A DNA stretch of 64,000 nucleotides from Candidatus Omnitrophota bacterium (GCA_023819375.1 JAMWDI010000004.1:130190-194189), one strand, 5' to 3'; positions 14,491 to 31,570 are shown, numbered from the stretch's first letter. Translations and numbers: made by a program. Notes: generated from the sequence alone by a model not told the origin.

Positions 14491-15120
14491 AACACCAATT
14501 GAAATTTCAATTTTTTCGTAATAATTTTTCATTTTATTCAAAAGTGAAGTCAATCCTTTTATGAATATAGAAAGAATTATAAAAGGTATTCCCATCCCAA
14601 AAGAATAAGAGAATAAAAGCAAAATTCCCCTTTTGACAGTTTTTTCCATTGAAGCAAGTATTAAAATTGAAGAAAGGACAGGTCCGACACAAGGAGTCCA
14701 GGCACCTGCAAGTCCCATTCCAAGTATAAATGCATTTAAATATCCAATATTTATTTTTTTAAATCTAAATCTTCTTATTTCATAAAATTTTCTGATTTTT
14801 AAAATGCCAATGATATGTAAACCAAAAATTATCATTAAAATTCCACCTATATATCTTAAAAAATTTTTTCCAGTCCCAATGAAATTACCTAAAAATGAAG
14901 CAGTCGCTCCAAGTGAAACAAAAACAGTTGTAAAACCAAGAACAAAGAGAAAACTTGGAAATAAGATTTTACTGTAAGAAATTTTTTTGTTTTTGAATTC
15001 TTCAATTGAATAACCTGTAATATAGGATAAATAAACAGGAATTAAAGGTAAAACGCAGGGACTGAAAAATGAAAGTAATCCACTGAAGAAACAGAAAAAT
15101 ACAGAGTAATTTTTAATCAT
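14446..15120 (-). CDS. ccdA: Cytochrome c-type biogenesis / disulfide-reductant transporter CcdA (DsbD transmembrane-domain family)
   Basis: FFSPCVLPLIPVYLSYITG and WTPCVGPVLSSIL are the two conserved CcdA Cys motifs in TM helices. Confidence 0.7.
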   Translation of the reverse strand: MIKNYSVFFCFFSGLLSFFSPCVLPLIPVYLSYITGYSIEEFKNKKISYSKILFPSFLFVLGFTTVFVSLGATASFLGNFIGTGKNFLRYIGGILMIIFGLHIIGILKIRKFYEIRRFRFKKINIGYLNAFILGMGLAGAWTPCVGPVLSSILILASMEKTVKRGILLLFSYSFGMGIPFIILSIFIKGLTSLLNKMKNYYEKIEISIGVLLCFFGLLIIIKRF

Positions 15121-15949
15121 TTTTAAGTAAAAATCTATTTAAAAAATGTGAAATACAAGATTGATCATTTGTATATTCAGAAACAAATTTTACAACTTTT
15201 TTCACTTTTTCTTTCGCATTTTTAGGAGCAACTGAAATTCCTGCAAAAAGAAGCATTTCAATATCATTTTCACCATCTCCAAATGCTATTATTTCATTTC
15301 TTTTTATTCCATAATATTTTGCAAGAACCTCAAGGCCTTTTCCCTTGTTAACTTCCTTTTTCATAAATTCAAGATATTCAGGGTTTGTTTTGACAATATT
15401 TAAAGAATTTCCAAAAATTTTTTTAAAATAATCATATTGATAATCCCTTGTTCTTGTTTCATCGGGATTTTCTGCATCTGTAATAAGTATTAATTTTGTT
15501 GGTTTTTTGTTTTTCATAATTTCAAGGTTTTCAATAAAATTATATTTTGCAGAGGTTTGTTTTGAATAAATTTCAGCATATTTTCTTAAAGATTCATCCT
15601 TTTGAGCATAAAGAATATCGTTGTAATAAAAGTTTAATAGAAATCTATTTTTAACGCAATAATCAATGATAAATCTTGAATATTTTAAAGGAACAGGTTT
15701 ATGATAGATTATTTTTCTTTTTTCCTTTTTACTCAATCTTACCATAGCCCCATTATAAACAATTAAAGGTGTATCTATTTCAAGAATTTCAGAATAGATT
15801 GAAACGCAATCTGTCATTCTTCCTGATGCAAGAGCAACAATTACTCCTTTTTGTGCAAATTTCTTTAAAGTTATTTTGTCTTCTTTACTTATTTTTCCTT
15901 TGCTATCTAATAAAGTTCCATCAAGGTCAATTGCAATTAATTTTATCAT
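15113..15949 (-). CDS. Cof-type HAD-IIB family hydrolase (sugar-phosphate phosphatase-like)
   Basis: MIKLIAIDLDGTLLDS (motif I DxDGT) ... ASGR ... GDGENDIEML (motif IV). Confidence 0.7.
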   Translation of the reverse strand: MIKLIAIDLDGTLLDSKGKISKEDKITLKKFAQKGVIVALASGRMTDCVSIYSEILEIDTPLIVYNGAMVRLSKKEKRKIIYHKPVPLKYSRFIIDYCVKNRFLLNFYYNDILYAQKDESLRKYAEIYSKQTSAKYNFIENLEIMKNKKPTKLILITDAENPDETRTRDYQYDYFKKIFGNSLNIVKTNPEYLEFMKKEVNKGKGLEVLAKYYGIKRNEIIAFGDGENDIEMLLFAGISVAPKNAKEKVKKVVKFVSEYTNDQSCISHFLNRFLLKND

Positions 15950-15973
15950 TTGGGATAATTATACATTACAAAT

Positions 15974-16002
15974 TTGAAATTACAAAAAATGTATTGTATA
16001 TT
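15974..16002 (+). promoter_or_regulatory. Candidate sigma70-like promoter upstream of parA-like: TTGAAA, 17 nt, TATATT
   Basis: TTGAAA at 15974-15979. TATATT at 15997-16002. Only 7 nt lie before the ATG at 16010, so the transcript may be leaderless. Confidence 0.3.
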
Positions 16003-16009
16003 TAATCAG

Positions 16010-16786
16010 ATGGAGATGAAAATTATTGCTTTTTCTAATCAAAAGGGTGGTACTGGCAAAACAACAATTTGTGTTAATCTTGCAGCAGGTCTTGTTAAAT
16101 TGAATGAGAGGGTTTTGATAATTGATCTTGATCCTCAGGGAAATTCAACAGTAAGTGTAGGTATAAATTTAAAGCCTGATGATTTAACAGTAAGAGAATT
16201 CATTCTTGGAGAGGCAAGGATTGAGGATGTTATGGTTGATAGTTATATGGCAGATCTTTCAATAATACCTTCTAATCCTGATCTTGCCCACGTTGAAATT
16301 GAGATTGCAAATAAAAGTAAAAATCAATTTTATTTAAAAAGAGCAATTGAAAATTCAAAAGAAGTATTAAAATCTTTTGATTACATTTTTATAGATTGTC
16401 CTCCATCTCTTTCAATTCTTACAATAAATGGGTTGTGTGCATCAAATTATGTTTTAATACCTGTTCTTGTAGATTACCTTTCACTACAAGGGCTTTCTAA
16501 TTTGCTTGAAACAATAGAGCAAGTAAAGAAAAAATTGAATCCAGGACTTGAAATTCTTGGAATTATCCCAAATATGCTTGATTATAGATTGAAAATTACA
16601 GAAGAAAGTTTGGAATTGTTGAAAGAAAATTTTAATGAGAAGGTTTTTAAAAATGGTATTAAAATTTGCAGTAGATTAAGAGAATCTCCGTCTTTTGGTA
16701 AAGCCATATTTGATTATGCCAGAAATTCACAGGCAGCAGTTGATTTTTTAAATCTGGCAAAAGAATTTAAAAGGAGATTAAAATGA
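16010..16786 (+). CDS. ParA/MinD-family (type Ib ParF-like) P-loop ATPase
   Basis: MEMKIIAFSNQKGGTGKTTICVNLAAGL is a deviant Walker A. IIDLDPQGNST follows. It has no N-terminal HTH. I chose the start at ATG 16010 rather than the track's TTG at 15974. ATG 16016 is an alternative. Confidence 0.7.
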   Translation: MEMKIIAFSNQKGGTGKTTICVNLAAGLVKLNERVLIIDLDPQGNSTVSVGINLKPDDLTVREFILGEARIEDVMVDSYMADLSIIPSNPDLAHVEIEIANKSKNQFYLKRAIENSKEVLKSFDYIFIDCPPSLSILTINGLCASNYVLIPVLVDYLSLQGLSNLLETIEQVKKKLNPGLEILGIIPNMLDYRLKITEESLELLKENFNEKVFKNGIKICSRLRESPSFGKAIFDYARNSQAAVDFLNLAKEFKRRLK

Positions 16787-16995
16787 AAAGATTGGGACCA
16801 CAGACGAAAAAATTATTTGAAATAAAAAAGAGTGAAGAAAAAGAAAGTAAAAAATTACAGCAAAAGACAAAAAAATATACTTTTATTCTTCCTGTAGATT
16901 TGATGAAAGAGGTTAAACATAAAGCAGTTGAAGAAGAAAAGACAATTTCCCAATTTGTTATTGATGCTCTGAAAAATTATCTGAAAATAACCTAA
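16783..16995 (+). CDS. Small ribbon-helix-helix (ParG/CopG-like) protein with a Lys-rich N-terminal tail
   Basis: YTFILPVDLMKEVKHKAVEEEKTISQFVIDALKNYL has a beta-strand, helix, helix pattern. It is 70 aa. ATGA overlap with parA-like. Confidence 0.55.
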   Translation: MKRLGPQTKKLFEIKKSEEKESKKLQQKTKKYTFILPVDLMKEVKHKAVEEEKTISQFVIDALKNYLKIT

Positions 16996-17035
16996 CTTGA
17001 CAGATTTTTATTTTGAAGGGTAAAATAAAGTTGCT

Positions 17036-18754
17036 ATGCCGACAAAGAGGGAAATTATTAATATTATCCAAAATGTAGGGCTGTGGGATAGAAAAAGTAT
17101 TGAATCTGCACTTGAGGAACAAGAAAGGACTGGTCAGCCATTAAGAGAGATTTTTCAGGGGAGGGGAATGCTTCCTTTTGGAGAAATAAGTCCTTCCTTT
17201 TATTTTCAACTTGGAATAGTTCAAAGAGAATTACCTTTAAGAGAAATCCCCCCAGAAGTAATAAGTATTCTTCCCCCTAAAGTAGTTAAACAACATAGAA
17301 TTGTTCCATGGGAAAAAAGAGAAGACACCCAAACACTTATTTTTGTTACAGATGATCCTATAAATATTCTTGCTGCTGATTATTTTAAAAAAATTGCTGG
17401 TATTGAAGGAATAAAAAATGTTGAGATTATTGTTACTTTTAAAGAAGAGATAGACCAGTTACTTGAAAAATATTATGGACAGGAAGAGATGGAAGATTTA
17501 ACTGCTATGCTTCAGGAGGCAAGCAGTGCTACAATAGATCTTGATTTGCCAAATATTGAAGAAGTTGAAGAAGATGAGGAAGCACTTGCTTTACAGGCAC
17601 CTGTTGTTAAAATTGTCAATTTGATATTTGTTGAAGCATTAAGAAGAAGAGCAAGTGATATACATCTTGAACCTCTTGAAAAAAAATTCAGAGTTAGATT
17701 TAGAATAGATGGTGTATTATATGAAATTGTTTCACCCCCAAAAAGAATAGAAAAGGCAGTAATAGCAAGAATAAAACTTATGTCAAAAATGGATATTGCA
17801 GAGAAACGTCTTCCACAGGATGGCAGAATAATGCTTGATATTGGTGGAAGACCGATTGATTTCCGAGTTTCAACATTGCCAGGGATTTATGGAGAAAGTG
17901 TTGTATTGAGAATTCTGGATAAAACAAGAATGCTTATAGGACTTGATAAACTTGGTTTCTTACCTGATGACCTTGAAAAATGGAATAGAATTTTACAATT
18001 TACAGGCGGTCTTGTTCTTGTTACAGGTCCAACAGGTTCGGGAAAAACAACGACTCTTTATGCTTCACTTCAAAAATTAAATACAATTGATAGGAAAATT
18101 ATGACAGTTGAAGAACCTGTTGAATATCAAATACCAGGAATAAACCAGACACCAGTTAATCCAGAAATAGGTTTAACTTTTGCAAATGTTTTAAGAGCAT
18201 TTTTAAGACAATCCCCAGATGTTATACTTGTTGGAGAAATTAGAGATAAAGAAACAGCAGATATTGCATTAAGAGCAGCATTAACAGGACATCTTGTATT
18301 TTCAACTTTACATACAAATGACGCTCCAAGTGCAATAACAAGATTAATTGATCTTGGAATGCCTCCATTTTTGGTTGCTTCTGCAGTTCAAGGAGTTATG
18401 GCTCAAAGATTGGTAAGAGTTTTGTGCCCATACTGTAAAGAAAAAATTGAACCAGATGAAAAGTTAAAAAGAGCACTTAAAATAAAAGAAGGGGAAGAAG
18501 TAAATGTTTGTCAACCTAAAGGATGTAATGAATGTGGATTTACAGGTTTTTATGGAAGAATTGGAATTTTTGAAATATTCATAATGAATGATGAATTGAG
18601 AGAACTCACTTTAAAAAGAGTTAGTGCTTCTGAATTGAGAGAAGCAGCAATAAAAGCAGGGATGAGAAGTATGTATGAAGACGGTATTTTAAAGGTAAAA
18701 ATGGGAATAACAACACTTGATGAAGTTATATCAGTTACAGGACAGGAGGAATAA
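17036..18754 (+). CDS. Type IV pilus / T2SS extension ATPase (PilB/GspE family), paralog 1
   Basis: GspE_N-like region. Walker A VTGPTGSGKTTTLYASL. C-terminal tetracysteine CPYCKEK...CNECGF. Asp box and His box are present. Confidence 0.8.
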   Translation: MPTKREIINIIQNVGLWDRKSIESALEEQERTGQPLREIFQGRGMLPFGEISPSFYFQLGIVQRELPLREIPPEVISILPPKVVKQHRIVPWEKREDTQTLIFVTDDPINILAADYFKKIAGIEGIKNVEIIVTFKEEIDQLLEKYYGQEEMEDLTAMLQEASSATIDLDLPNIEEVEEDEEALALQAPVVKIVNLIFVEALRRRASDIHLEPLEKKFRVRFRIDGVLYEIVSPPKRIEKAVIARIKLMSKMDIAEKRLPQDGRIMLDIGGRPIDFRVSTLPGIYGESVVLRILDKTRMLIGLDKLGFLPDDLEKWNRILQFTGGLVLVTGPTGSGKTTTLYASLQKLNTIDRKIMTVEEPVEYQIPGINQTPVNPEIGLTFANVLRAFLRQSPDVILVGEIRDKETADIALRAALTGHLVFSTLHTNDAPSAITRLIDLGMPPFLVASAVQGVMAQRLVRVLCPYCKEKIEPDEKLKRALKIKEGEEVNVCQPKGCNECGFTGFYGRIGIFEIFIMNDELRELTLKRVSASELREAAIKAGMRSMYEDGILKVKMGITTLDEVISVTGQEE

Positions 18755-19900
18755 ATGGCGAAAAGAATAGAAGAACTTCTGGAATTTGTGGTTAGAGAAA
18801 ATGCTTCAGACCTTCATTTAAATGTTGGTCTTCCACCTATGGCACGATTACATGGGGGTCTTCATAAACTTGATAGTGAACCTTTGACACCAGAAGATAC
18901 TGTAAACTATATGAAAGCAATAACATCAAGAGAACATCAGGAAGAGTTACAGAGAGTCGGAGGAACAGATTTTGGATTTGCCTTTAAAGATTTGGCAAGA
19001 TTTAGAGTAAGTGTTTTTAAAGAAAGAGGACATGTTGCTCTTGCTTTGAGATTGATTCCTTATAAATTTTTAACCTTCCAAGAAATAGGCCTTGATGAAA
19101 ATACAATGAAATATATATTAACAAGACCAAGAGGATTGATACTTGTCACAGGTCCAACAGGTTCAGGAAAAACAACAACTCTTGCAACAATGATTGATTG
19201 GATAAATACAAATCTTGACAAACATATAATAACGATAGAGGACCCAATAGAATATTATCATCCTCACAAAAGATCAATAATTAGTCAGAGAGAACTTGGA
19301 GTAGATGTTCCAACATTTGCAGAGGCATTAAGAAGAGGATTGAGACAGGATCCAGATGTATTTCTTGTTGGTGAAATGAGGGATCTTGAAACAATTGAAG
19401 CAGCAATAACAGCAGCAGAAACAGGTCATATTGTATTTGCTACATTACATACGACAGGTGCAGCAAGGACAGTTGATAGAATTGTTAATGTTTTTCCAGT
19501 TGCACAACAGGAACAAATACGTGTTATGCTTTCAGTTTCAATTTTAGCAATTATATCTCAAGTATTGTTAAAAAGAATAGATAAACCAGGAAGAGTTGCT
19601 GCTTTTGAAATAATGATTGCTACGCCCTCAATTCAGAATTTGATAAGGGAAAGGAAAACTTACAGGATCATTTCAGAAATACAGACAGGTGGAAAATGGG
19701 GAATGGTTACAATGGATTCCTTTTTAATGAAATTATTTAAGGAGGGGAAAATTGGTCTTGATGATGTTTTGACATACTCCTATGACCCAGAAAACGTGAA
19801 GGCACAACTTGTTGCAGAAGGTGTCCTTGGAGAAGAGGTTCTTGCTGAAAAAAGGAAAGAAGGAATAGAAGCAGAAATGGAAAGAGAAGGGGTAAAATAA
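18755..19900 (+). CDS. pilT: Twitching-motility retraction ATPase PilT with a C-terminal acidic extension
   Basis: LILVTGPTGSGKTTTLATMIDWIN. PilT signature IQNLIRE (consensus AIRNLIRE). About 345-aa core plus a 35-aa tail. Confidence 0.8.
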   Translation: MAKRIEELLEFVVRENASDLHLNVGLPPMARLHGGLHKLDSEPLTPEDTVNYMKAITSREHQEELQRVGGTDFGFAFKDLARFRVSVFKERGHVALALRLIPYKFLTFQEIGLDENTMKYILTRPRGLILVTGPTGSGKTTTLATMIDWINTNLDKHIITIEDPIEYYHPHKRSIISQRELGVDVPTFAEALRRGLRQDPDVFLVGEMRDLETIEAAITAAETGHIVFATLHTTGAARTVDRIVNVFPVAQQEQIRVMLSVSILAIISQVLLKRIDKPGRVAAFEIMIATPSIQNLIRERKTYRIISEIQTGGKWGMVTMDSFLMKLFKEGKIGLDDVLTYSYDPENVKAQLVAEGVLGEEVLAEKRKEGIEAEMEREGVK

Positions 19901-21618
19901 TGACTGCAAGAAAATTACTTGGGCAAATGTTAATAGAGGAAGGGCTTATAACAGAACAACAACTGAGAATTGCTTTAGAAAAACAGAGACAAACAGGTCA
20001 TTTCCTTGGCAGAATTCTTGTAGATCTTGGTTTTGTTTCAGAAAAAGATTTAAAAAGAGTGTTAAGTATTCAAGCAGGTGTTGAGATGATTGATTTGAAA
20101 AATACAGTTATTGACAGGAAAGCAATTGAAGTTTTTCCATCTGCTCTTGCAAAAACTTATAATGTAATGCCTGTAAAACTTGAAAAAGATACAATAACTC
20201 TTGCAGTTGGAGATACATTGAGTTTAAATATTCAAGATGATATTTCATTTATTCTTGGATATAAAATCAAAATGGTTCTTGCTGATGAAAATGATATTAA
20301 GGAAGCAATTGAAACACACTATGGAAAAGAAATAGAAACAATAGATGACCTTATAAAATGGCTTGCTCAAGATGTTGAAGAAATGGAAGAACTTGAAGCA
20401 ATAGCAAGCCAAGGAGAATATGCAACAATTACATCCCTTGAAGAAATTGCTTCTTTACCACCTGTAGTAAAATTATTTGATTTGATTTTGCTTCAAACTG
20501 TAAGAGATAATGCCTCTGACGTGCATCTTGAACCATTTGAGGATGATTTTAGAATAAGGTATAGAGTTGATGGTGTTTTATATGATCTTGTTCATCCACC
20601 AAAAGGACTTGCTTTTGCACTATTCTGTAGATTTAAAATTATGGCTGGAATGGATATAGCAGAAAGAAGATTACCACAAGATGGAAGAATTGAATTATCA
20701 GTTATGGGAAGAGCAGTTGACTTGCGTGTGAATACGGTTCCAACTGTTTTTGGTGAATGTCTTGCAATTCGTGTTCTTGATAGAGGAAAGACAATCTTTG
20801 AACTTGAAAATTTAGGTCTTTTACCAGAAGATATGGAAAAAATAGAGAAGATGATAAAAAAACCTCATGGAATAATTCTTGCAACAGGACCTACTGGATG
20901 TGGTAAAACAACAACTTTATATGCTATCTTAAGGAAATTAAATACACCAGATGTAAAAGTAATAACAACAGAGGACCCAGTTGAATACATGCTTGAGGGA
21001 GCAATACAGGTACCAATAAAAGAGCACATAGGACTTACTTTTGCAAGGTGTTTAAGAAGTATATTAAGACAGGACCCTGATATCATACTTGTTGGTGAAG
21101 TAAGGGATTTTGATACAGCACAGATGGCAATTCAGGCTTCATTGACAGGTCACATAGTTTTAAGTACACTTCACACAAATGATGCTCCAACTACAATTTA
21201 CCGACTTGTAGATATGAATGTTGAACCATTTTTACTTGCTTCTACAATTGAAGGAGTTATTGCACAACGACTTGTTAGAGTTTTGTGTCCAAGATGTAAA
21301 AAAGAATATAGACCAACAAAACAGGAATTAATGCAGGTTGGATTAACTCCTGAAAAAGCAGAAGGAATGAAATTTTATAAGGCAGTTGGTTGTCCTTTCT
21401 GTAGAGGCGGATATAAAGGAAGAACAGGTATTTTTGAAATTTTGACTCCAAATGAAAAATTCTGGCAGGCAATATATGAAAGAAGACCACTTGGAGAAAT
21501 AAGAGAAATTGCTGTAAGGGAATGTGGAATGAAAACATTGCTTGAAGATGGACTTAAAAAGATAGATATGGGTATAACAACTATAGAGGAAGTAGCAAGA
21601 GAAGTTCATGGTTATTAA
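19900..21618 (+). CDS. MshE-type PilB/GspE-family ATPase with a canonical N-terminal MshEN (c-di-GMP-binding) motif pair
   Basis: LLGQMLIEEGLITEQQLRIALEKQ and FLGRILVDLGFVSEKDLKRVLSIQ match the tandem MshEN 24-mer RLGxxLLxxGLLxxxxLxxxLxxQ. Walker A ATGPTGCGKTTTLYAIL. CPRCKK...CPFCRG. Confidence 0.75.
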   Translation: MTARKLLGQMLIEEGLITEQQLRIALEKQRQTGHFLGRILVDLGFVSEKDLKRVLSIQAGVEMIDLKNTVIDRKAIEVFPSALAKTYNVMPVKLEKDTITLAVGDTLSLNIQDDISFILGYKIKMVLADENDIKEAIETHYGKEIETIDDLIKWLAQDVEEMEELEAIASQGEYATITSLEEIASLPPVVKLFDLILLQTVRDNASDVHLEPFEDDFRIRYRVDGVLYDLVHPPKGLAFALFCRFKIMAGMDIAERRLPQDGRIELSVMGRAVDLRVNTVPTVFGECLAIRVLDRGKTIFELENLGLLPEDMEKIEKMIKKPHGIILATGPTGCGKTTTLYAILRKLNTPDVKVITTEDPVEYMLEGAIQVPIKEHIGLTFARCLRSILRQDPDIILVGEVRDFDTAQMAIQASLTGHIVLSTLHTNDAPTTIYRLVDMNVEPFLLASTIEGVIAQRLVRVLCPRCKKEYRPTKQELMQVGLTPEKAEGMKFYKAVGCPFCRGGYKGRTGIFEILTPNEKFWQAIYERRPLGEIREIAVRECGMKTLLEDGLKKIDMGITTIEEVAREVHGY

Positions 21619-21642
21619 TTTATAAAAAATTAAGGGGGTAAA

Positions 21643-22962
21643 ATGGCTCTCTTTCAATATAATGCAATAGATAGTTCTGGAAAGCCATTAAGTGGAACAA
21701 TAGATGCTTCAGGAGTTAGTGATGCTATAGCGAAATTGAAAAGTATGGGTTATTTTGTTACAAGTGTTACTCCAGCAAAGGGTACACCTACTAAGACAAC
21801 TGAAAAAGGAAAGACTACACAAACCAAGACAACAAAAAAAAGTAGTGCAAAAGGGCTTTCAATTTCCATATCCCTTCCCTTTCTCGGAAATAAAATAAAA
21901 CCAAAAGAGTTAATGATAATAACAAGACAGTTGGCAACATTAATTGGTGCAGGCCTTCCTCTTTTAAGATCATTGAGAGTTTTAAAAGAACAGAGAAGAG
22001 GAGCAGCAAGTAATATTCTTGGTAAAATAGCAGATGACATTGAACAAGGAGCATTATTTTCAGAAGCATTAAGTAAGCATCCCAGCAGTTTTCCAAGAAT
22101 ATATGTTGCTATGGTCAAAGCAGGTGAAGCAGGTGGTGCTCTTGAAATTGTTTTATCAAGACTTGCAGATTTTATGGAAAAAGAAGCAAAATTAAGAGGA
22201 AAAATAAAATCAGCAATGGCATATCCAACAGTTGTTCTTATAGTTACAATTGGTATGTTAACTTTTATTATGTTAAAAATAGTTCCTACATTTATTCAAA
22301 TATTTCAGGATATGGAAGTTGGAGACCTACCAGCACCTACAAAACTTGTTATTGCAATATCTAAACTACTTGCTCAGAAGTCACCATTTGTAGTAATGGG
22401 AATTTTTGCTCTCTTCATTTTTTATAGAATACTGTTAAAAATCAAATTTACAAGATACTGGATTGATATGCTTAAATTGAGGATTTTTCTTTTTGGACCA
22501 ATAATTTCAAAAACAATAATTGCAAGATTCGCAAGGACATTTGCTACATTGATTTCAAGTGGTGTTCCAATTTTACAATCTTTACAGATTGTTAGAGATA
22601 CTGTTGGAAATGAAGTAATAGCAAATGGAATAAATGAAATAAGAAACAGGGTAAGAGAAGGAGAAGGGATTGCCGGTCCAATGTTAAGAACAAAAGTATT
22701 TCCACCTATGGTAACAAACATGGTTGCAGTTGGAGAGGAAACAGGACAGATGGATGCGATGCTTGATAAAATTGCTGATGCTTATGAAGCAGAAGTAGAT
22801 TCAGCAGTTGCAGCACTTGCTTCAATGATAGAACCAATAATGATTGTATTTCTTGGTGGAGTTGTAGGATTTATTGTTATTTCTCTTTACATGCCATTAA
22901 TAAAAATTGCTATGAGTTTATCAGGAGCAACCGGAGGAGGTGGTGAAGGTGGTGGTGAGTAA
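21643..22962 (+). CDS. pilC: Type IV pilus / T2SS inner-membrane platform protein PilC/GspF
   Basis: N-terminus [39 protein letters not shown]. Two GspF repeats and three TM segments. It has an unusual Thr/Lys-rich insert and a Gly-rich C-terminal tail. Confidence 0.75.
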
Positions 22963-22976
22963 AAAAGGAGAAAATA

Positions 22977-23720
22977 ATGAGAAAAAAAACAGGTTTTACT
23001 TTAATGGAAGTTCTTATAGTGATTGCCATCATTTCATTTCTTGTTGGTTTACTCCTGCCTGCTTTATCCTCTGCAAGAGAAAGAGCAAGAAGAACGACCT
23101 GTGTGAATAATTTGAAACAATTAAGTGCTGCCTTTGAAATGTACGCTGAAGACCATTTTGAAAAATTTCCAGATGGAGAGACTGCTTTATATATAGGTAC
23201 AATAAATTCTTCTTTTAAATCAATTTATCCATTTTATATCAATACTGCTCAAACCTTTTATTGTCCAAGTTCAAGAGTTAGAGGATTGTTGCCACCAGAA
23301 AGTATTGGAGAAAAGTCTAATTTGCTTCCTTTAAATGATGGTGATCCTAAACCTGGTTATAGTTGGAAAGATTATAGAAATGAATGGTATGCTTCCTATT
23401 CTTTTGTTTTTGGTTTAAGCACTGGAAATAAATCAACAAAACCAGTTCCTATGATAAGTGATAGAGGAATTTATAATACAAGAGATTTATCAGGTTATCC
23501 AAATCTTTCTGGTTGCAATCCTAAAACTGGAAATCATGAATGGGGAATAAATGTTTTATATATTGATGGATCTGTTAACTGGATAAATCTAAAAGATATT
23601 ATATTTTCCTTGGATGCTGATGATGGAAGCCCTCGTATGGGAAATGTTGCTGCAAGACCAAATGGATATTCAGTTGTTCTCAATGAAGATGCAGAAAAAA
23701 CAGAATGGGGAGAGGATTGA
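22977..23720 (+). CDS. Prepilin-type N-terminal cleavage/methylation protein with H-x9-DG (DUF1559-type) C-terminus
   Basis: [39 protein letters not shown] ... [25 protein letters not shown] is 8 nt upstream. Confidence 0.75.
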
Positions 23721-23744
23721 TATTTTTATTTAAAGGAGGACAAA

Positions 23745-24425
23745 ATGAGAAAAAAAGGTTTTACGCTTGTAGAGATGCTTGTTGTTATTGCGATAATTGC
23801 TGTTCTTGCTTCACTTTTGTTTCCTGCTTTAAGTTCTGCAAGAGAAAAAGCGAGGAGAGCAACCTGTATGAATAATTTAAAACAGATAGGTCAGATTATT
23901 ATCATGTATGCTGATGATAATTATGAAACATTTCCTTATTCTGGTGAAAATTGTGATACTATAAGAGATGCAGAAATTGGGGATGAATTTAAAACATCCA
24001 TTGAAATTTATTTTGATAATTACCAGTTCTTTTACTGTCCGTCTAATAAAGCAAGATATTCAAGGTATAAGGAAAACTGGAATAGTGGTTTAATTGGTTA
24101 TACATATCTTGCCAATATTGACAAAAATTATGTTGATGATAACTATGAGTATTTAATACCTGAAACTTCTGCGAATAAAAGCATTAATAGATTGATTTTA
24201 ATGAGTGATAGGATTATTTATAATAAAAATCAAAACAGATGGGTAGAAGCAAATCATCCATCAGCAATCCAAAATCCAGAAAGTGAACCTCAAAAAGGAA
24301 AATTTTCTGCAGGTGGCAATTTTCTTTATGGAGATAGTAGTGTAAGATGGGTATCAGAGTTACAATTAGACACTGAAATTGTAAGTAGTTCTGGTTATTC
24401 TCAGAGATTAAAATTAAGTGAATAA
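23745..24425 (+). CDS. Prepilin-type pseudopilin-like protein (DUF1559-like with a degenerate C-terminal motif)
   Basis: [38 protein letters not shown] ... [23 protein letters not shown]. Confidence 0.7.
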
Positions 24426-24439
24426 AAAAGGAGAAAAAA

Positions 24440-25081
24440 ATGAGAAAAAAAGGATTTACAACAATTGAATTACTCGTTGTTATGGTTATTATTGCTTTTC
24501 TTGCAGGTCTTTTATTACCAGCGATAAGAAAATCAAGAAGCAAAGCATTAATAGATAAAGCAAAAGCAGAAATGGCAAATTTAGCAAGTATAATGACAAT
24601 GGTAAAAATGGATACTGGTTATTATGTAGAATTAAGATCTCTTGCATGTCCTATAATAGATGAAGATAACGAAGGAATATATATTGATTTATCAAGTAAT
24701 GATTGTGCTACTAATTCAGAAACAGTTTTTGCTTATTATAATAGAACAACTGGAAAGGACGATACTAGTTTTGAATCTCAATTAAGTAAATATGAAACAC
24801 CAAACTGGGATGGACCTTATATCACTTATCAACCAAATGCAACATATCAAGGAGGTAATGGTTCTGTTCCTGTTGTTGCTGCTTCTGGATGGGCAACTCC
24901 TTTGGAAAAAAAAGTTCCCTATGGTACTCCTCTTGACCCTTGGGGACATACATATCTTATTGCTTATAATGATACAGAAAAAGTTATGATAATTTATTCA
25001 GCAGGACCAAATGGAAAGATAGAGACTCCTGCCGGTGAAACAGAGCCTCGTGGGGATGACCTACTCTACAAATTTCGCTAA
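24440..25081 (+). CDS. GspG/PulG-like major pseudopilin
   Basis: MRKKGFTTIELLVVMVIIAFLAGLLLPA ... KAKAEMANLASIMTMVKMDTGYY ... DPWGHTYLIAY...IYSAGPNGK parallels E. coli GspG (..ALDMYKLDN..DPWGSDYQLL..FSLGPDG). Confidence 0.6.
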   Translation: MRKKGFTTIELLVVMVIIAFLAGLLLPAIRKSRSKALIDKAKAEMANLASIMTMVKMDTGYYVELRSLACPIIDEDNEGIYIDLSSNDCATNSETVFAYYNRTTGKDDTSFESQLSKYETPNWDGPYITYQPNATYQGGNGSVPVVAASGWATPLEKKVPYGTPLDPWGHTYLIAYNDTEKVMIIYSAGPNGKIETPAGETEPRGDDLLYKFR

Positions 25082-25116
25082 TTATTAAATTTTCTAAAAC
25101 TTCTTTTATTCATTTT

Positions 25117-25335
25117 TTATCTGATTAAAATTTTTCTCACTGTTTTCTTTGTCTTTTCATATGTCTGAATTATAAACTTCTTTGCCATTATCTTATCTGC
25201 CATTAACAATTCTCTATAACTGGATAATATATTTCTAAATTCTTCATTCTTTTCTAAAAATCTCTTCTGTAATCTTTTTGCCTCTCTTTTACTCTGTGAA
25301 ATAAATGCCTCTCTTAGCCATATATTACTTCTCAT
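25117..25335 (-). CDS. Small basic hypothetical protein (72 aa). Weak call.
   Basis: ORF only. No SD. It sits antisense between two same-strand pilin genes. Confidence 0.2.
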   Translation of the reverse strand: MRSNIWLREAFISQSKREAKRLQKRFLEKNEEFRNILSSYRELLMADKIMAKKFIIQTYEKTKKTVRKILIR

Positions 25336-25371
25336 ATCTTATCTACCTTGTCTACCTAAAAAGATTTTTTA

Positions 25372-25400
25372 TTGACAAAATAAATAATTATAGATAAAAT
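25372..25400 (+). promoter_or_regulatory. Candidate sigma70-like promoter: TTGACA, 17 nt, TAAAAT, followed by SD AAAGGAGG
   Basis: TTGACA at 25372-25377. TAAAAT at 25395-25400. SD at 25413-25420. ATG at 25429. Confidence 0.45.
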
Positions 25401-25419
25401 ATATATAAAATGAAAGGAG

Positions 25420-25497
25420 GTGAGAAAGATGAAAAGAGGTTTTACTTTAATAGAACTTCTTGTTGTAGTGGCAATAATTGCGATTCTGGCTGCTATG
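25420..25497 (+). repeat. 5' segment of the pilin gene that is nucleotide-identical to 26194-26271. At least 69 nt are identical from the ATG.
   Basis: By direct comparison, atgaaaagaggttttactttaatagaacttcttgttgtagtggcaataattgcgattctggctgctatg occurs in both genes. The sequences diverge after that. Confidence 0.8.
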
Positions 25498-26175
25498 CTT
25501 TTACCGGTTTTGGGAAGGGCAAGAGAAAGGGCAAGAACATCTTTATGTATGAATAATTTAAAACAAATTGCACTTGCGATTTTAGTTTATACCAATGATT
25601 ATGATGGTTATTTTCCTTCAAATTATACTTGCAGACAGGGTTGGGGTGGTTGGCCTGGTCCAGAAGCAGGATTAAACGCAAGATTTCCTGTTTGGAGTCA
25701 TATATTATGGAGGGATGGATATATAAAAGATAAGAAAATTTTTGCCTGTCCAAGTTATAGAGAAAAAAAGGGTGTGCCAAATGAATGGTTAAATGGGAAA
25801 TATGTTGGAGCAAGGGATTATGGTATGAATGGTTTCTTAAATGATTTATATATAGGTGGAAGAATACTTAAAATAGATAGGATTAAATCTCCTTCTTTTA
25901 TGTTTATGATTTTAGAAGGATTTAGAGAAGATATAACAGATAGATATGCAGCGGGTATTTATGCTTATCTTAATGATGCGGCAATAAGATATTTTAGAGC
26001 AAGTGCACATCTTGAAACAAGAAATGTCTGGGGTTCTTATCTTTATGGAAAAGGTGGAACAAATGTTGCTTTTTGTGATGGACATGTAGAATATATAACT
26101 GATTCAACAATGAGAGGAACTATGTTTGGAACTAAAAATTACTATTTATACTGGGATGCCAGAGTAACTTACTAA
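25429..26175 (+). CDS. Prepilin-type DUF1559 (H-x9-DG) protein
   Basis: [36 protein letters not shown] ... [11 protein letters not shown] chose ATG 25429, which has a good SD, over the track's GTG at 25420. Confidence 0.75.
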
Positions 26176-26202
26176 TTTTAAATTATATAAAAAGAGAGAA
26201 AG

Positions 26203-26940
26203 ATGAAAAGAGGTTTTACTTTAATAGAACTTCTTGTTGTAGTGGCAATAATTGCGATTCTGGCTGCTATGTTGTTGCCAGCATTATCAAAAGCGAGGGA
26301 AAGGGCAAGACAGGTAAGTTGTATGAATAATATGAAACAACTTGGATTTGCTGTTTTAATGTATGTAAATGATTATAATGAATTTACTCCTCCGAGAGGA
26401 TATAAATGGGGGACTTCATATCTTTACTTCCCTAAACTTCTTACTTTATGTGGATATATAAAAGTTCCTTTAAAAGATTTTGATAGTCGCGGATTTACAG
26501 ATAAAGGAGTTTTTAAATGTCCAAGTGCAATAATTCCTTACCCTGGATATAAATTTGGAGGCATAGGAATAGTTATAGGGGTAGATACTGGTGGTCATTA
26601 TATGCCTGGAGGTAATTTGTGGACTATGTGGTGGGATGATCACTGGCAGTTCCGTCCTCCTGCAAAATATGGGAAGATTAAACATCCTGACAAAAAAGCA
26701 ATGCTTGGTGATTCTGAAGAAAGAGGAATGAATGCAGCATACATTCAATGTCCTATATGCTATTCAAATCTTGGATCTCCATGGCCTGAGATTGGTCAAA
26801 CACAAATTATTGGATATCTTCCTTATAGACGACATTTAGGTGGTGGTAATGTATGTTTCTGGGATGGCCATGTTGAATGGGTGAGATATCAAGATGCGAA
26901 AGCAAATAAAAACGATATATGGGGTCATTATGAATGGTAA
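26203..26940 (+). CDS. Prepilin-type DUF1559 (H-x9-DG) protein
   Basis: [36 protein letters not shown] ... [17 protein letters not shown]. Confidence 0.75.
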
Positions 26941-26964
26941 TTATTAAGTGGAAAAAAGGAGTTA

Positions 26965-28635
26965 GTGATGAAAGTTTGTAAAAGTTTGATATTTTTTTTA
27001 ATTTCTTCTTTTATTTTTTGTGAAATAATAAATATTAAAGAAATTGGAGTAAAAGGAGATGGGACAGATGAAACAGAAATGGTTCAGAAAATTTTTAATG
27101 AAGTAAAAGATGGAACAGGTATATATTTTCCTGCAGGTAAATATTGTATAAGAGCAGTAAAAATAGAAGACAAAAAAGGGCTAAAAATTTTTGGAGACGG
27201 AAGCCAATCACAGATAATTTGTGCCAAAAAAGAAGAACCAAATACTCATATTTTTGATTTTATTGATTGTGATGATCTTACAATTGAAAATTTAACTTTT
27301 GATACATCTGGAGTAGAAAAATTTGGAGGGATAGGGATTTATGGTGGAGATAGAATTAGAATTATAAATAATAGATTTACAGACCCTTTACTTATAGAAT
27401 CTCTTGCAGAAAAAGGACCAATGACAGATAGATATGCTCTTTTAGCAATTGGCTGTAGAAACTTTTATTTTATAGGAAATATAGTTGAAAATTTACAAGT
27501 AGAATTTAACCATATAAAGAGTGGATTTTTTCTTAACAACAAAATTTATAATCCAATACATATGGGATTTGTTACAGCAACTACAACAAGAGGGGCATAT
27601 TTAGAAGATGTAATAATATCAAACAATATAATTGAAAATCCTTTGGGATATGCAATTGGAGCAGGTTATGATCCTTCATATGAAAATATAAAAATTAAAA
27701 ATATTATAATATCAAATAATATAATCAAATGTAGACCAAGAATAACAACAGATAATTTTGGAATTTTTTTAGGTACAAGACCTGGTATTAAATTGCGTGC
27801 TAAAAATTGTTTTTGGCAGAATATTCAGATTGTAAATAATCTTATAATTTACTACCCTTTAAATAATCTAAATTCTGAATTTGGGGGAATTATGCTTTCT
27901 CAACCTGAGGGAACAGATATTTATTTTGAGAATGTTGTTATTAAAGGAAATCAGATTCTTTTTAATGGGAAAGTTGATCATAAATCTAAAGTTGTATACA
28001 AATATTCCGATGGAAGACTGGTAGCAGAATATCCTTTTTGGAGAGAAGGATTTTGTGGAATATATGGATATAAAATAAAAAATTCATTGATAGAAGGGAA
28101 TTTCATAAGAGGGTTTCCTATAGGTATACATCTAAAGAATATTGAAAATTTGACTATTTACAATAATGTTGCTTTAAATCAAACAGAATTTGGATATATA
28201 ATTGAAATTTCAAATGGTAATAATATTTTTAAAGAAAATATATTTATAGGAGATATTAAGGATCCGATCAAAGTCAAGGATATTAAAGAAACAGATACAA
28301 TTGCTCAGTCTATCGTTAAGAATACTAAAATAGACAATATGTTTGATTATTTATTGCCATGGCCTTTATTTGAAGAAAAGAAAGAATTTCAAGAAGGGAT
28401 GATCGGAGAAATAGAGATGATTGGAGAAATAATAGATTTTTTACCTTCTGCTGATTGTATTATATTTAAAAGAGAAGATGGTCAGATTATGAATTTAAGA
28501 ATATCTCCGTGGAAAAGAAAATATGCTGCAAGAAAGGGGATAAAGAAATGTAAAATAATTTGTGAGAAAATACTTCCTTCTGAAGAAATCAGGATTAAAA
28601 AGATTGAAAGTTTAAACGGTGAAATTGTTAAGTGA
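26965..28635 (+). CDS. Secreted right-handed parallel beta-helix (pectate-lyase-superfamily) protein
   Basis: Signal peptide MMKVCKSLIFFLISSFIFC. GVKGDGTDETEMVQKIFNEV..GTGIYFPAGKY is a Pectate_lyase_3-like start. Repeated NN.I.N turns. Confidence 0.6.
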   Translation: MMKVCKSLIFFLISSFIFCEIINIKEIGVKGDGTDETEMVQKIFNEVKDGTGIYFPAGKYCIRAVKIEDKKGLKIFGDGSQSQIICAKKEEPNTHIFDFIDCDDLTIENLTFDTSGVEKFGGIGIYGGDRIRIINNRFTDPLLIESLAEKGPMTDRYALLAIGCRNFYFIGNIVENLQVEFNHIKSGFFLNNKIYNPIHMGFVTATTTRGAYLEDVIISNNIIENPLGYAIGAGYDPSYENIKIKNIIISNNIIKCRPRITTDNFGIFLGTRPGIKLRAKNCFWQNIQIVNNLIIYYPLNNLNSEFGGIMLSQPEGTDIYFENVVIKGNQILFNGKVDHKSKVVYKYSDGRLVAEYPFWREGFCGIYGYKIKNSLIEGNFIRGFPIGIHLKNIENLTIYNNVALNQTEFGYIIEISNGNNIFKENIFIGDIKDPIKVKDIKETDTIAQSIVKNTKIDNMFDYLLPWPLFEEKKEFQEGMIGEIEMIGEIIDFLPSADCIIFKREDGQIMNLRISPWKRKYAARKGIKKCKIICEKILPSEEIRIKKIESLNGEIVK

Positions 28636-28976
28636 TATGCAAATTAATTTTTTCTATACTTTTTTGAAATGTCTTTAGATACAAAGAACTGTTCTATTAA
28701 ACCACCTCTATTTATTGTAACCCAGTAAAGTAAAAACCAGAAAGAATATTGATATAATAGTGATTGGATTTGAAGATTACAGAGAACCAACAAAAAAGAA
28801 TTTATTAATTATTTGAAAGAAATTGGTAAAAATGATATTGCATAAAAAGTTGAAGAAAATAGAATACCTGAACCTTCATACAGTTGGGATTTTTATGAGG
28901 AATAAAAGATAATATCTAATCAACAAGACGATTTTTTAAATACCAAAGAAAATCATTATATTTTCTCCAAAAAAAT

Positions 28977-29012
28977 TTGACAAATTTATTAATACGTGTT
29001 AGTTTATTAACA
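28977..29012 (+). promoter_or_regulatory. Candidate promoter (TTGACA, 17 nt, TAGTTT) with an overlapping inverted repeat TGTTA-n6-TAACA as a putative LacI-family operator
   Basis: TTGACA at 28977-28982. TAGTTT at 29000-29005. The palindrome is at 28997-29012, just upstream of the lacI-family start. Confidence 0.3.
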
Positions 29013-29026
29013 TGAGAGAAGTTACA

Positions 29027-30052: not shown

Positions 30053-30056
30053 AAAA

Positions 30057-31561: not shown

Positions 31562-31570
31562 GGGGATTGA

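What the first reader, a model, noticed from the sequence alone, without database searches (positions are those of the whole stretch)
15974..22962. ParA/ParG-like partition pair fused onto a pilus ATPase operon (parA-RHH-pilB-pilT-pilB'-pilC)
A small type-Ib ParA-like ATPase and a 70-aa RHH protein with a Lys-rich tail (ParF/ParG-like) sit 40 nt upstream of pilB. They are co-directional, and all downstream junctions are 0 to 24 nt. ParA/MinD-like ATPases are known to position flagella (FlhG), Tad pili (TadZ/CpaE) and chemosensory arrays. A ParF/ParG-type pair leading a PilB/PilT/PilC operon suggests spatial positioning of this pilus or secretion machine. Alternatively it is a plasmid-derived partition module.
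Basis: partly seen in the sequence, partly recalled or inferred. Interest (0 to 1): 0.6.

Follow-up and report, generated by a model that had tools for sequence, protein, structure and literature searches.

The report
ParA–RHH cassette before pilus-motor operon
A DNA-partition-type gene pair (a ParA ATPase and a tiny DNA-binding partner) sits just upstream of a pilus-motor operon in one group of uncultured Omnitrophota/Ratteibacteria, but it has its own promoter and no link to the pilus is shown.

Summary
The window holds parA (true start ATG 16010, not TTG 15974), a 70-aa ribbon-helix-helix (RHH) gene, then pilB1-pilT-pilB2-pilC and pseudopilin genes, with the stated gaps.

The ATPase is Soj-type, not ParF-type. 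The partner has an invariant N-terminal peptide (RLGPQxKKLF), a Lys-rich linker and an RHH domain. The peptide repeats the hydrophobic pattern of ParB's ParA-binding motif.

The context is chromosomal. The RHH protein has no plasmid homologue. I found no iterons, no parS and no conserved operator.

The parA-RHH-pil order holds in every informative relative: 27 loci, 17 of them GTDB species representatives.

Three facts weaken a functional link:
- pilB1 has its own conserved, apparently leaderless promoter.
- Five sister lineages have the same operon and promoter without the cassette, behind rbfA-argS.
- That unrelated rbfA-argS adjacency is equally conserved.

Most likely this is a working type-Ib-style ParA/adaptor module whose cargo is DNA. 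A role in positioning or regulating the pilus remains possible (about 0.25-0.3) but is unproven.

It is a new variant of a known kind, of moderate interest.

The parts
15974..16002 (+). Putative parA promoter: -35 TTGAAA (15974-15979), 17-nt spacer, -10 TATATT (15997-16002). The ATG follows 7 nt later, so the transcript is probably leaderless.
   Evidence: Promoter scan scored 10/12. Equivalent TTGAT[GA]-N17-TATACT-N6/7-ATG sites precede parA in most orthologous loci. No usable SD precedes ATG 16010.
16010..16786 (+). parA: a Soj-type deviant Walker-A ATPase of 258 aa.
   Evidence: AAA_31 at 202 bits. Best solved relatives are chromosomal ParA/Soj: 8ray 186 bits, Thermus Soj 159, H. pylori Soj 152. 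McdA, delta and MinD score only 55-63 bits. K12, K17, D39, D41, D129 and the non-specific-DNA-binding Arg222 are invariant in 22/22 clade members.
16783..16995 (+). Gene for a 70-aa 'mini-ParB' adaptor. It has an invariant N-terminal peptide M-x-RLGPQ-x-KKLF, a variable Lys-rich linker, and an RHH domain (strand KKYTFILP plus two helices).
   Evidence: Alignments A1/A2. PDB profile hit to 9kkd, a CopG-family RHH protein, at E=3.4e-5. AF2 model and Foldseek hits. PHROG Arc-like repressor families. Translationally coupled to parA: ATGA overlap and an AAAGGAGA SD.
16997..17026 (+). pilB1 promoter: -35 TTGACA (16997-17002), 18-nt spacer, -10 TAAAAT (17021-17026). The ATG follows 9 nt later with no SD.
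   Evidence: Promoter scan scored 11/12. Present in all 20 aligned clade loci, sometimes overlapping the RHH stop codon. Also present in sister loci L034 and L036, which lack parA-RHH. SD comparison.
17036..18754 (+). pilB1: a GspE/PilB-family assembly ATPase of 572 aa.
   Evidence: T2SSE 460 bits; TIGR02533 611 bits and TIGR02538 590 bits, both just under their equivalog cutoffs.
18755..19900 (+). pilT: retraction ATPase of 381 aa.
   Evidence: TIGR01420 PilT/PilU family at 446 bits, above the 319 cutoff.
19900..21618 (+). pilB2: a second PilB/GspE-family ATPase, carrying an N-terminal MshEN-type c-di-GMP-binding motif.
   Evidence: T2SSE 431 bits. NF053729 c-di-GMP motif at 70.6 bits (cutoff 38) on residues 7-58; this motif is absent from pilB1.
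21643..22962 (+). pilC/gspF: inner-membrane platform protein.
   Evidence: T2SSF domain matched twice, 218 bits. PilC and GspF models score 390-393 bits.
22977..26940 (+). Five prepilin-type genes with N_methyl plus DUF1559/HX9DG or T2SSG domains (22977-23720, 23745-24425, 24440-25081, 25420-26175, 26203-26940).
   Evidence: Pfam and NCBIfam hits.

Best explanation
This is a self-contained two-gene ParA/adaptor cassette of type-Ib (ParA + RHH) architecture. It was acquired once at the base of one Omnitrophota/Ratteibacteria subclade. Since then it has sat directly in front of the older promoter of a type-IV-pilus-like motor operon.

Proposed mechanism:
1. The Soj-type ParA binds ATP, dimerises and coats nucleoid DNA non-specifically through Arg222 and a basic C-terminus.
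2. The 70-aa partner dimerises through its RHH domain. It reads a specific, still unidentified DNA site with the invariant Lys31/Thr33 strand and the helix-2 N-cap (K53, T54, S56).
3. The partner's invariant N-terminal amphipathic peptide (RLGPQxKKLF) docks in the pocket where ParB's ParA-binding motif docks, and triggers ATP hydrolysis.

The thing moved or positioned is therefore RHH-bound DNA (a chromosomal locus), as in ParF/ParG, delta/omega and SegA/SegB. It is not the pilus proteins directly.

Shown: gene content, folds, conservation, separate promoters, lineage distribution. Inferred: every biochemical step, and the nature of the cargo. The link to the pilus operon is so far only positional.
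For: - ParA is Soj-type, with all catalytic residues and the nsDNA-binding Arg invariant. That Arg corresponds to M. xanthus ParA R238, whose R238E variant lacks DNA binding (PMC12462528).
- Five of the six ParB-binding-pocket residues defined in M. xanthus ParA (V116, L150, L152, L155, L192) stay hydrophobic in nearly all of the 22 clade ParAs (one Pro at the V116 position) (residue list from PMC12462528).
- The small protein is an RHH protein.
- Its N-terminus is invariant in 44 homologues. It has hydrophobic positions at i, i+4, i+7 and i+8, with Gly at i+1. This is the pattern of ParB's LGRGLxxLI motif, seen in the ParBs beside outgroup Soj genes.
- parA and the RHH gene are translationally coupled and have their own promoter.
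- Both genes are under clear purifying selection across 60-100% identical orthologues.
- The RHH family is found only in this cassette: 71 proteins in the word-index search and 3 clusters among 1.84 billion representatives.
- Every known ParA+RHH pair has a DNA cargo (reviews PMC9178275 and PMC11407121).
Against: - No centromere-like repeats, no conserved operator and no parS were found in or around the locus. Some loci have only 31-40 nt of non-coding DNA on either side.
- I could not test whether these genomes also carry canonical ParAB/parS, so the chromosomal role is unresolved.
- The cassette's arrival coincides with the pil operon's move away from rbfA-argS. The par-pil junction has never been broken, while the upstream junction changed at least four times. 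This would fit a pilus-related function.
- The central basic residue of the ParB motif (position i+2) is Pro here, and the sixth pocket position (Mx L187) is Glu in 14/22 clade ParAs. The docking mode may therefore differ.
Confidence: 0.45

Rival explanations
1. Pilus-machine positioning or assembly control. The ParA gradient on the nucleoid, together with the RHH adaptor, decides where or how many pilus motors assemble. It could do so by contacting PilB/PilT/PilC directly. Alternatively it could position the pil locus, so that co-transcriptional membrane insertion of PilC happens at a defined site.
For: - The gene order parA-RHH-pilB1-pilT-pilB2-pilC is invariant in all 27 informative loci, including the most divergent RHH homologue. 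The upstream neighbour, by contrast, varies: HAD hydrolase, fucosidase, amidohydrolase and others.
- A/D ATPases are usually encoded beside their cargo, and TadZ/CpaE, BcsQ and VirC1 are precedents for envelope machines (PMC11407121).
- The cassette was acquired at the same node at which the pil operon left its ancestral rbfA-argS site.
Against: - The pil operon has its own ancestral promoter and works without the cassette in five sister lineages.
- The adaptor is a DNA-binding fold with invariant DNA-contact positions and no recognisable protein-cargo domain.
- ParA has no N-terminal receiver-like domain such as TadZ's, and no MinD/FlhG-type family match.
- PilB1's N-terminus is essentially the same in sister lineage L034, which lacks the cassette.
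- The unrelated argS-pilB1 adjacency is equally conserved, so synteny alone proves little.
- A 1-kb insertion between the RHH gene and pilB1 is tolerated in L033.
Confidence: 0.25
2. Transcriptional switch. The RHH protein is an Arc/CopG/AmrZ-like repressor of the parA promoter and/or the adjacent pilB1 promoter. ParA acts as an ATP-dependent co-regulator, as ParF does for ParG and Soj does for sporulation promoters.
For: - The best profile and fold matches are transcriptional repressors: CopG, Arc, AmrZ and PHROG Arc-like repressor families.
- The RHH stop codon lies 1-60 nt from, or inside, the -35 box of the pilB1 promoter.
- Type-Ib centromere-binding proteins are autorepressors (PMC9178275).
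Against: - Apart from the -35 and -10 hexamers, nothing is conserved in either promoter across 20 loci, and no k-mer is shared by the two promoters of a locus. Yet the DNA-reading strand of the protein is invariant.
- The pilB1 promoter is the same in lineages without the RHH protein.
- A plain repressor would not need a conserved ParA-activating peptide or a catalytically intact ParA.
Confidence: 0.15
3. VirC1/VirC2-like DNA hand-off. The RHH protein marks a DNA substrate and ParA delivers it to the retractile pilus machine, for DNA uptake or export.
For: - VirC1 (ParA-like) plus VirC2 (RHH) recruit DNA to a secretion machine driven by a PilT/GspE-superfamily ATPase (PMC11407121).
- The operon has PilT, so it encodes a retractile filament of the type used for DNA uptake.
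Against: - No relaxase, oriT, coupling protein or competence DNA-channel genes were seen in the parts of the window and loci that were annotated.
- VirC1 models score far below threshold: PF07015 21.9 bits against a 24 cutoff, NF010423 24 bits against 313.
Confidence: 0.05
4. Inert relic of an integrated plasmid or ICE partition module, kept only by synteny inertia.
For: - Type-Ib architecture is typical of plasmids.
- The cassette is lineage-specific and appeared together with a rearrangement.
Against: - There is strong purifying selection: catalytic residues, the N-terminal peptide and the RHH strand are invariant over ParA divergence down to 60% identity, with no pseudogenes among the informative loci.
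- The RHH protein has no plasmid homologue, and ParA is no closer to plasmid than to chromosomal ParAs.
- No mobile-element genes flank it.
Confidence: 0.05

Closest known systems
Type Ib plasmid partition systems (ParF-ParG of TP228; delta-omega of pSM19035)
   Same: A small deviant Walker-A ParA without an N-terminal HTH. A downstream dimeric RHH partner of about 70 aa whose flexible basic N-terminal tail activates the ATPase. The two genes are translationally coupled.
   Different: The ATPase belongs to the chromosomal Soj subfamily, and ParF does not appear among hits at E<=1e-10. The tail carries a ParB-like hydrophobic motif. The locus is chromosomal. No adjacent centromere repeats were found. 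The RHH family has no plasmid homologue.
Chromosomal ParABS (Soj-Spo0J/ParB)
   Same: ParA is 42-49% identical to Soj proteins. The catalytic residues, the nsDNA-binding Arg and 5 of 6 ParB-pocket residues are conserved. The partner's N-terminus mimics ParB's ParA-binding motif.
   Different: The partner has no HTH, ParB/Srx CTPase or dimerisation domains; it is a 70-aa RHH protein. No parS is present in the window. The outgroup Soj genes are followed by canonical ParB, but this one is not.
SegA-SegB (Sulfolobus chromosome segregation)
   Same: A chromosomally encoded ParA-type ATPase plus an RHH site-specific DNA-binding partner (PMC9178275).
   Different: SegAB is archaeal, with no detectable sequence relationship to this pair. 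SegB binding sites lie next to the genes, whereas none were found here.
TadZ/CpaE of Tad (type IVc) pili
   Same: An A/D-family ATPase gene placed directly upstream of the pilus ATPase gene. It positions the machine (PMC11407121).
   Different: TadZ has an N-terminal receiver-like domain, an atypical Walker A and no RHH partner, and it acts at the pole rather than on DNA. Here the machine is of PilB/PilT/PilC (T4a/T2SS-like) type, for which neither the 2024 A/D-ATPase review nor the 2024 PilB-cofactor review mentions any ParA-type factor.
VirC1-VirC2 of the Agrobacterium Ti plasmid
   Same: A ParA-like ATPase plus an RHH DNA-binding partner, functionally tied to an envelope machine powered by a PilT/GspE-superfamily ATPase.
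   Different: VirC acts on T-DNA border/overdrive DNA together with a relaxase and a T4SS, and none of these is present here. VirC1 models score below threshold.

Membership tests
Type Ib partition system (ParA + RHH centromere-binding protein) | Small deviant Walker-A ParA lacking an N-terminal HTH/regulatory domain | tested here: met
   258 aa. The Walker A motif KGGTGKTT starts at residue 12. AAA_31 covers residues 15-194 of the 270-aa ORF. Aligns end to end with 250-260-aa Soj structures.
Type Ib partition system (ParA + RHH centromere-binding protein) | Partner is a small RHH-fold DNA-binding protein encoded immediately downstream | tested here: met
   Profile hit to 9kkd, a CopG-family RHH protein, at E=3.4e-5. 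AF2 model and Foldseek hits to CopG, Arc, AmrZ and ParG. 4-nt overlap with parA.
Type Ib partition system (ParA + RHH centromere-binding protein) | Flexible basic N-terminal tail that contacts and activates the ATPase | tested here: inconclusive
   An invariant RLGPQxKKLF peptide plus a Lys-rich, low-pLDDT linker is present. ATPase activation cannot be tested with these tools.
Type Ib partition system (ParA + RHH centromere-binding protein) | Cis-acting centromere (arrays of short repeats) next to the genes | tested here: not met
   No repeat family above chance in window 15700-17300. No conserved or locally enriched k-mers across 20 loci. Flanking non-coding DNA is as short as 31-40 nt. Sites elsewhere in the genome cannot be excluded.
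Type Ib partition system (ParA + RHH centromere-binding protein) | ATPase of the ParF subfamily | tested here: not met
   The top solved relatives are chromosomal ParA/Soj at 152-186 bits. No ParF chain scores at E<=1e-10.
Chromosomal ParABS | ParB partner with ParB/Srx CTPase and HTH domains | tested here: not met
   The downstream gene is a 70-aa RHH protein with no ParBc hit. Outgroup Soj genes are followed by 282-288-aa ParB.
Chromosomal ParABS | 16-bp parS palindromes (TGTTNCACGTGAAACA) | tested here: not met
   The best match in the 64-kb window has 2 mismatches, at 46461. The two matches inside pilB1 have 3 mismatches; the one at 18019 overlaps the Walker A codons. The rest of the genome was not available.
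TadZ/CpaE pilus-positioning ATPases | N-terminal receiver-like domain plus atypical ParA/MinD domain, encoded in a tad locus next to TadA/CpaF | tested here: not met
   No N-terminal extension is present. The neighbouring ATPases are PilB/GspE and PilT families; TadA-type models score about 50 bits against a cutoff of 373.
VirC1/VirC2 | VirC1-family ATPase with T4SS/relaxase context | tested here: not met
   PF07015 scores 21.9 bits (cutoff 24) and NF010423 24 bits (cutoff 313). No relaxase or VirB/D4 genes were seen in the annotated parts of the window or in the loci.
Type IVa-pilus-like motor module (PilB-PilT-PilC) | Assembly ATPase, PilT retraction ATPase and PilC platform encoded together with prepilin-type genes | tested here: met
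   T2SSE 460 and 431 bits. PilT family 446 bits, above the 319 cutoff. T2SSF matched twice. Five N_methyl pseudopilin genes. No secretin or PilMNO genes were seen among the genes annotated between 15974 and 39535.

The most novel reading that the evidence does not exclude
This would be the first ParA-type positioning system for a PilB/PilT/PilC-class (type IVa/T2SS-like) machine. A nucleoid-bound Soj-type ATPase and a 'mini-ParB' RHH adaptor would place the pil locus on the nucleoid. Through coupled transcription, translation and membrane insertion, or through direct contact with the motor ATPases, they would then fix where the pilus motors assemble in ultra-small Omnitrophota cells.
Probability: 0.2. 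Interest if true: 0.75.

Novelty: new variant of a known kind. Interest (0 to 1): 0.45.

Why it matters
ParA/MinD ATPases are the main known way bacteria place large cargos. For envelope machines, only TadZ/CpaE, BcsQ and VirC1 are described. Nothing comparable is known for PilB/PilT/PilC-type pili or type II secretion.

A conserved ParA-adaptor pair at the head of such an operon gives a concrete, testable candidate. The test materials are a 258-aa ATPase, a 70-aa adaptor and a 12-residue peptide.

Even if the pilus link is coincidental, the adaptor is instructive. It joins a ParB-style ParA-binding motif to an RHH domain. That suggests how Soj-type ATPases can swap a CTPase ParB for a minimal DNA-binding partner on a chromosome.

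The case also shows that conserved gene adjacency in these lineages can persist without function, as with argS-pilB1.

Tried and rejected
1. Iterons or a centromere near 15950-16010, or between the RHH gene and pilB1. The repeat finder on the window and k-mer presence and enrichment scans across 20 loci found only promoter hexamers and coding words. The two ATTACAAA copies are not conserved.
2. Canonical parS. Absent from the window.
3. Plasmid or phage origin. The RHH protein has no tblastn hit in 72,556 plasmids; ParA is at most 42.6% identical. PADLOC found nothing meaningful. PHROGs gave only generic ParA-like and Arc-like families.
4. A shared operator between the parA and pilB1 promoters of the same locus. 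None found.
5. Distant relatives of the RHH family. An exhaustive profile search gave only generic RHH matches beyond three clusters of the family itself.
6. Whether the same genomes carry canonical ParB or a second Soj.
It was redone with database homologues.
8. L019 looked like an exception, with no RHH gene after parA. Its contig ends 480 nt after parA inside a duplicated repeat element, so it is uninformative. L008 ends at parA.
9. GC skew changes sign at about 15 kb and 35 kb, but this follows gene strand, so it says nothing about oriC.

Full report
**Observation.** The + strand between 15974 and 22962 carries six co-directional ORFs.
- The first is a ParA/Soj-type ATPase (AAA_31 202 bits, CbiA 81 bits).
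- The second is a 70-aa ORF with only weak single-sequence RHH hits.
- The next four are a GspE/PilB-family ATPase, a PilT-family ATPase (446 bits, cutoff 319), a second PilB carrying an MshEN-type c-di-GMP motif, and a PilC/GspF platform protein.
- Five prepilin-type genes with DUF1559/HX9DG domains follow.

One correction concerns the parA start. The TTG at 15974 is the -35 hexamer of a TTGAAA-17-TATATT promoter. The real start is ATG 16010, which matches the 256-258-aa database homologues.

**The organism and replicon.** The window has about 29% G+C. Identical proteins are annotated from Omnitrophica/WOR-3 MAGs on a contig of 227 kb. Related MAGs are labelled Omnitrophota or Ratteibacteria.

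The annotated parts of the window hold metabolic genes, glycoside hydrolases, regulators and a tRNA. Orthologous loci are flanked by BamA, LpxC/D/A, dxs, NAD kinase and LexA/DinB. This is a chromosome, not a plasmid.

**The ATPase.**
- Its nearest solved relatives are chromosomal ParA/Soj proteins: 8ray 186 bits, Thermus Soj 159, H. pylori Soj 152. McdA, delta and MinD score 55-63 bits, and no ParF chain reaches E<=1e-10.
- In the protein database it forms a discrete clade of 60-100% identity (P0001-P0047). Identity then drops to 49% or less, into generic Soj.
- The signature Lys12, Lys17, Asp39/41 and Asp129 are invariant.
- Arg222 is invariant in 22/22 clade members. It aligns with M. xanthus ParA R238, whose R238E variant lacks non-specific DNA binding (PMC12462528). 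The numbering offset was checked through the D60A substitution visible in 8ray.
- The clade has a specific basic C-terminal end, E-[IF]-K-R-R-x-K.

**The small protein.** Orthologues from 20 loci align over three parts:
- an invariant N-terminus, M-x-R-L-G-P-Q-x-K-K-L-F;
- a variable Lys-rich linker;
- an invariant K-K-Y-T-F-I-L-P strand followed by two helices.

A profile of the family hits the CopG-family RHH structure 9kkd at E=3.4e-5. An AF2 model has pLDDT about 91 in the RHH part. It retrieves StnY, CopG, CopA, CdbA, Arc, AmrZ and, over its full length, ParG. PHROGs assign Arc-like repressor families.

The family is tiny. The word-indexed search of 5.8 billion proteins found 71 members. 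Exhaustive HMMER over 1.84 billion representatives found three clusters, and everything else matched only the generic RHH portion.

**The N-terminal peptide resembles ParB's ParA-binding motif.**
- The outgroup Soj genes recovered are followed by canonical ParB proteins beginning K-R-L-G-[KR]-G-L-x-A-L-I.
- In M. xanthus ParB, the ParA-binding determinants are L11, L15, L18 and I19 around a central R13 (PMC12462528). That is a pattern of i, i+4, i+7 and i+8, with Gly at i+1.
- The RHH protein has L4, A/T/V8, L11 and F12 with G5, which is the same pattern. The basic residues are shifted to K9/K10, and Pro replaces the central Arg.
- Five of the six ParA pocket residues mutated in that study stay hydrophobic in nearly all of the 22 clade ParAs (one Pro at the V116 position). 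The sixth, Mx L187, is Glu in 14/22.
- I infer that the peptide docks in the same pocket. This inference is not tested.

**Transcription units.** parA and the RHH gene overlap (ATGA) behind a strong AAAGGAGA SD in most loci. Between the RHH stop and pilB1, every one of 20 loci has TTGAC[AT]-N17/18-TAnAAT followed 6-9 nt later by the pilB1 ATG.
- In several loci the -35 box overlaps the RHH stop codon.
- pilB1 and parA lack an SD, while the internal genes (RHH, pilT, pilB2, pilC, pseudopilins) have one. Both therefore look like leaderless first cistrons.
- No terminator-like site was found anywhere in 15000-30000, so read-through is possible. It would present the pilB1 AUG internally, without an SD.

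The pair is adjacent to the pilus operon, not fused into it.

**Conservation and history.** tblastn of the six window proteins against all fetched loci shows the order parA-RHH-pilB1-pilT-pilB2-pilC wherever the contig extends far enough.
- This covers 17 GTDB species representatives plus the window and nine metagenome or MAG loci. Two of these carry the most divergent RHH homologue.
- ParA identity runs from 60 to 86%, and PilB1 identity from 74 to 93%.
- L033 tolerates a 301-aa ORF inserted between the RHH gene and the pilB1 promoter.
- L008 and L019 end too early to judge.
- The upstream neighbour varies: amidohydrolase in most loci, HAD hydrolase in the window, fucosidase in L001/L039, others in L007, L010 and L021.

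Five sister loci have PilB1 at 73, 71, 70, 58 and 55% identity. They carry the same operon but no parA-RHH. Instead they share ftsK(-)|rbfA-argS-pilB1. Two of the three whose upstream DNA I read (L034, L036) also have the same promoter layout; L035 has a leader with an SD.

So the cassette is a single lineage-specific acquisition that coincided with the operon's relocation. The sister arrangement also matters as a control. An adjacency with no obvious functional meaning (argS-pilB1) is conserved over a larger divergence. Synteny alone therefore cannot establish a par-pil functional link.

**Search for a DNA target.** The invariance of K31, T33 and the helix-2 N-cap (K53, T54, S56) implies a conserved DNA site. 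I found none near the genes.
- Repeats in window 15700-17300 are no more than chance-like.
- No k-mer beyond promoter hexamers and coding words is shared across loci, shared between the two promoters of a locus, or locally enriched.
- Some loci leave only 31-40 nt of non-coding DNA on either side of the pair.
- Canonical parS is absent from the window.

The target may lie in coding DNA or elsewhere in the genome.

**Interpretation.** Shown: a catalytically intact, nucleoid-binding-competent Soj-type ParA; a co-translated RHH partner with a ParB-like activating peptide; strong purifying selection; chromosomal location; its own promoter; strict but possibly inertial adjacency to a pilus-motor operon.

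Inferred: the pair works as a type-Ib-style Brownian-ratchet module whose cargo is RHH-bound DNA (confidence 0.45).

The rivals are:
- positioning or assembly control of the pilus machine, 0.25;
- a promoter-level regulatory switch, 0.15;
- VirC1/VirC2-like DNA hand-off, 0.05;
- an inert relic, 0.05.

**Comparison with what is known.**
- The architecture is that of ParF-ParG or delta-omega, and of archaeal SegAB (PMC9178275). The ATPase, however, is of the ParABS class.
- Reviews of A/D ATPases list only TadZ/CpaE, BcsQ and VirC1 for envelope machines (PMC11407121).
- A 2024 review of PilB cofactors mentions no ParA, MinD or TadZ factor (PMC11656802).
- Literature searches found no description of this cassette.

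**Verdict.** This is a new variant of a known kind, with interest about 0.45. The key unknowns are the RHH DNA target and whether these genomes also carry ParABS.

Noticed in passing
window 16997-17038 and 15974-16012; L034 and L036 just upstream of 8001: First cistrons here appear to be leaderless. A near-consensus TTGACA-N17/18-TAnAAT promoter sits 6-9 nt before the ATG with no Shine-Dalgarno sequence, while internal genes have strong ones. The layout is conserved across the clade and in two of three sister loci checked.
   Followed up: partly
window 19900-21618 (PilB2 residues 7-58) versus 17036-18754: Only the second PilB carries the MshEN-type c-di-GMP-binding motif (NF053729, 70.6 bits). 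The operon thus pairs a probably c-di-GMP-responsive assembly ATPase with one lacking that motif, around a PilT gene.
   Followed up: no
window 22977-35020: DUF1559/HX9DG prepilin-type genes are interspersed with a beta-helix pectate-lyase-like protein (26965-28635), a LacI-family regulator (29012-30052), a lectin-like protein and a GH123-like 1149-aa protein. This suggests pseudopilin genes tied to polysaccharide use. No secretin or PilMNO genes were seen among the genes annotated between 15974 and 39535.
   Followed up: no
L034, L035, L036, L040, L041 (PilB1 at 8001 or 6001): In sister lineages the pil operon sits behind ftsK(-)|rbfA-argS. This adjacency is conserved from 73% down to 55% PilB1 identity despite no evident functional relation.
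   Followed up: yes
P0370 (76 aa, from the representative library): An unrelated small protein has an even more ParB-like N-terminus (MKRGLGEKGKGIF), then a Lys-rich linker and an RHH domain. This hints at a wider, unnamed class of 'mini-ParB' RHH adaptors. Its genomic context could not be looked up.
   Followed up: no
RHH residue 8 and ParA residue 171 (alignments A1, A3): The window's subclade has Thr8 in the peptide and Q/M/Y/L at ParA position 171 (M. xanthus L187, a ParB-pocket residue). The other lineages have Ala/Val8 and mostly Glu171 (one His). This is a single phylogenetic split, so it is only a hint of co-variation at a predicted contact.
   Followed up: partly
L033 9270-10175: A 301-aa ORF is inserted between the RHH stop and the intact pilB1 promoter. 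Strict contiguity of the pair with pilB1 is therefore not required.
   Followed up: partly
L019 10832-11314: Downstream of parA the contig ends in two copies of an element of roughly 190 nt, about 270 nt apart (starting AATGAAAAGAAAGGGAAC...GGCTCACTCA...). It may be a repeat that broke the assembly. No RHH gene is visible there.
   Followed up: partly
L039 16931-17789: A nucleotidyltransferase/HepT-like toxin-antitoxin pair is inserted among the pseudopilin genes of one orthologous locus.
   Followed up: no
window, 11 sites (e.g. 46461-46476, 17302-17317, 18019-18034): Matches to parS with up to 3 mismatches are more frequent than in shuffles (11 versus 1.7 expected, 0 of 100 shuffles). Palindromic sites are counted on both strands, and the match at 18019 overlaps the Walker A codons (VTGPT). 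None has fewer than 2 mismatches.
   Followed up: partly
window 25117-25335 (- strand): A 72-aa basic ORF lies antisense in the gap between two pseudopilin genes, next to a strong TTGACA-17-TAAAAT promoter at 25372-25400. Its function is unknown.
   Followed up: no
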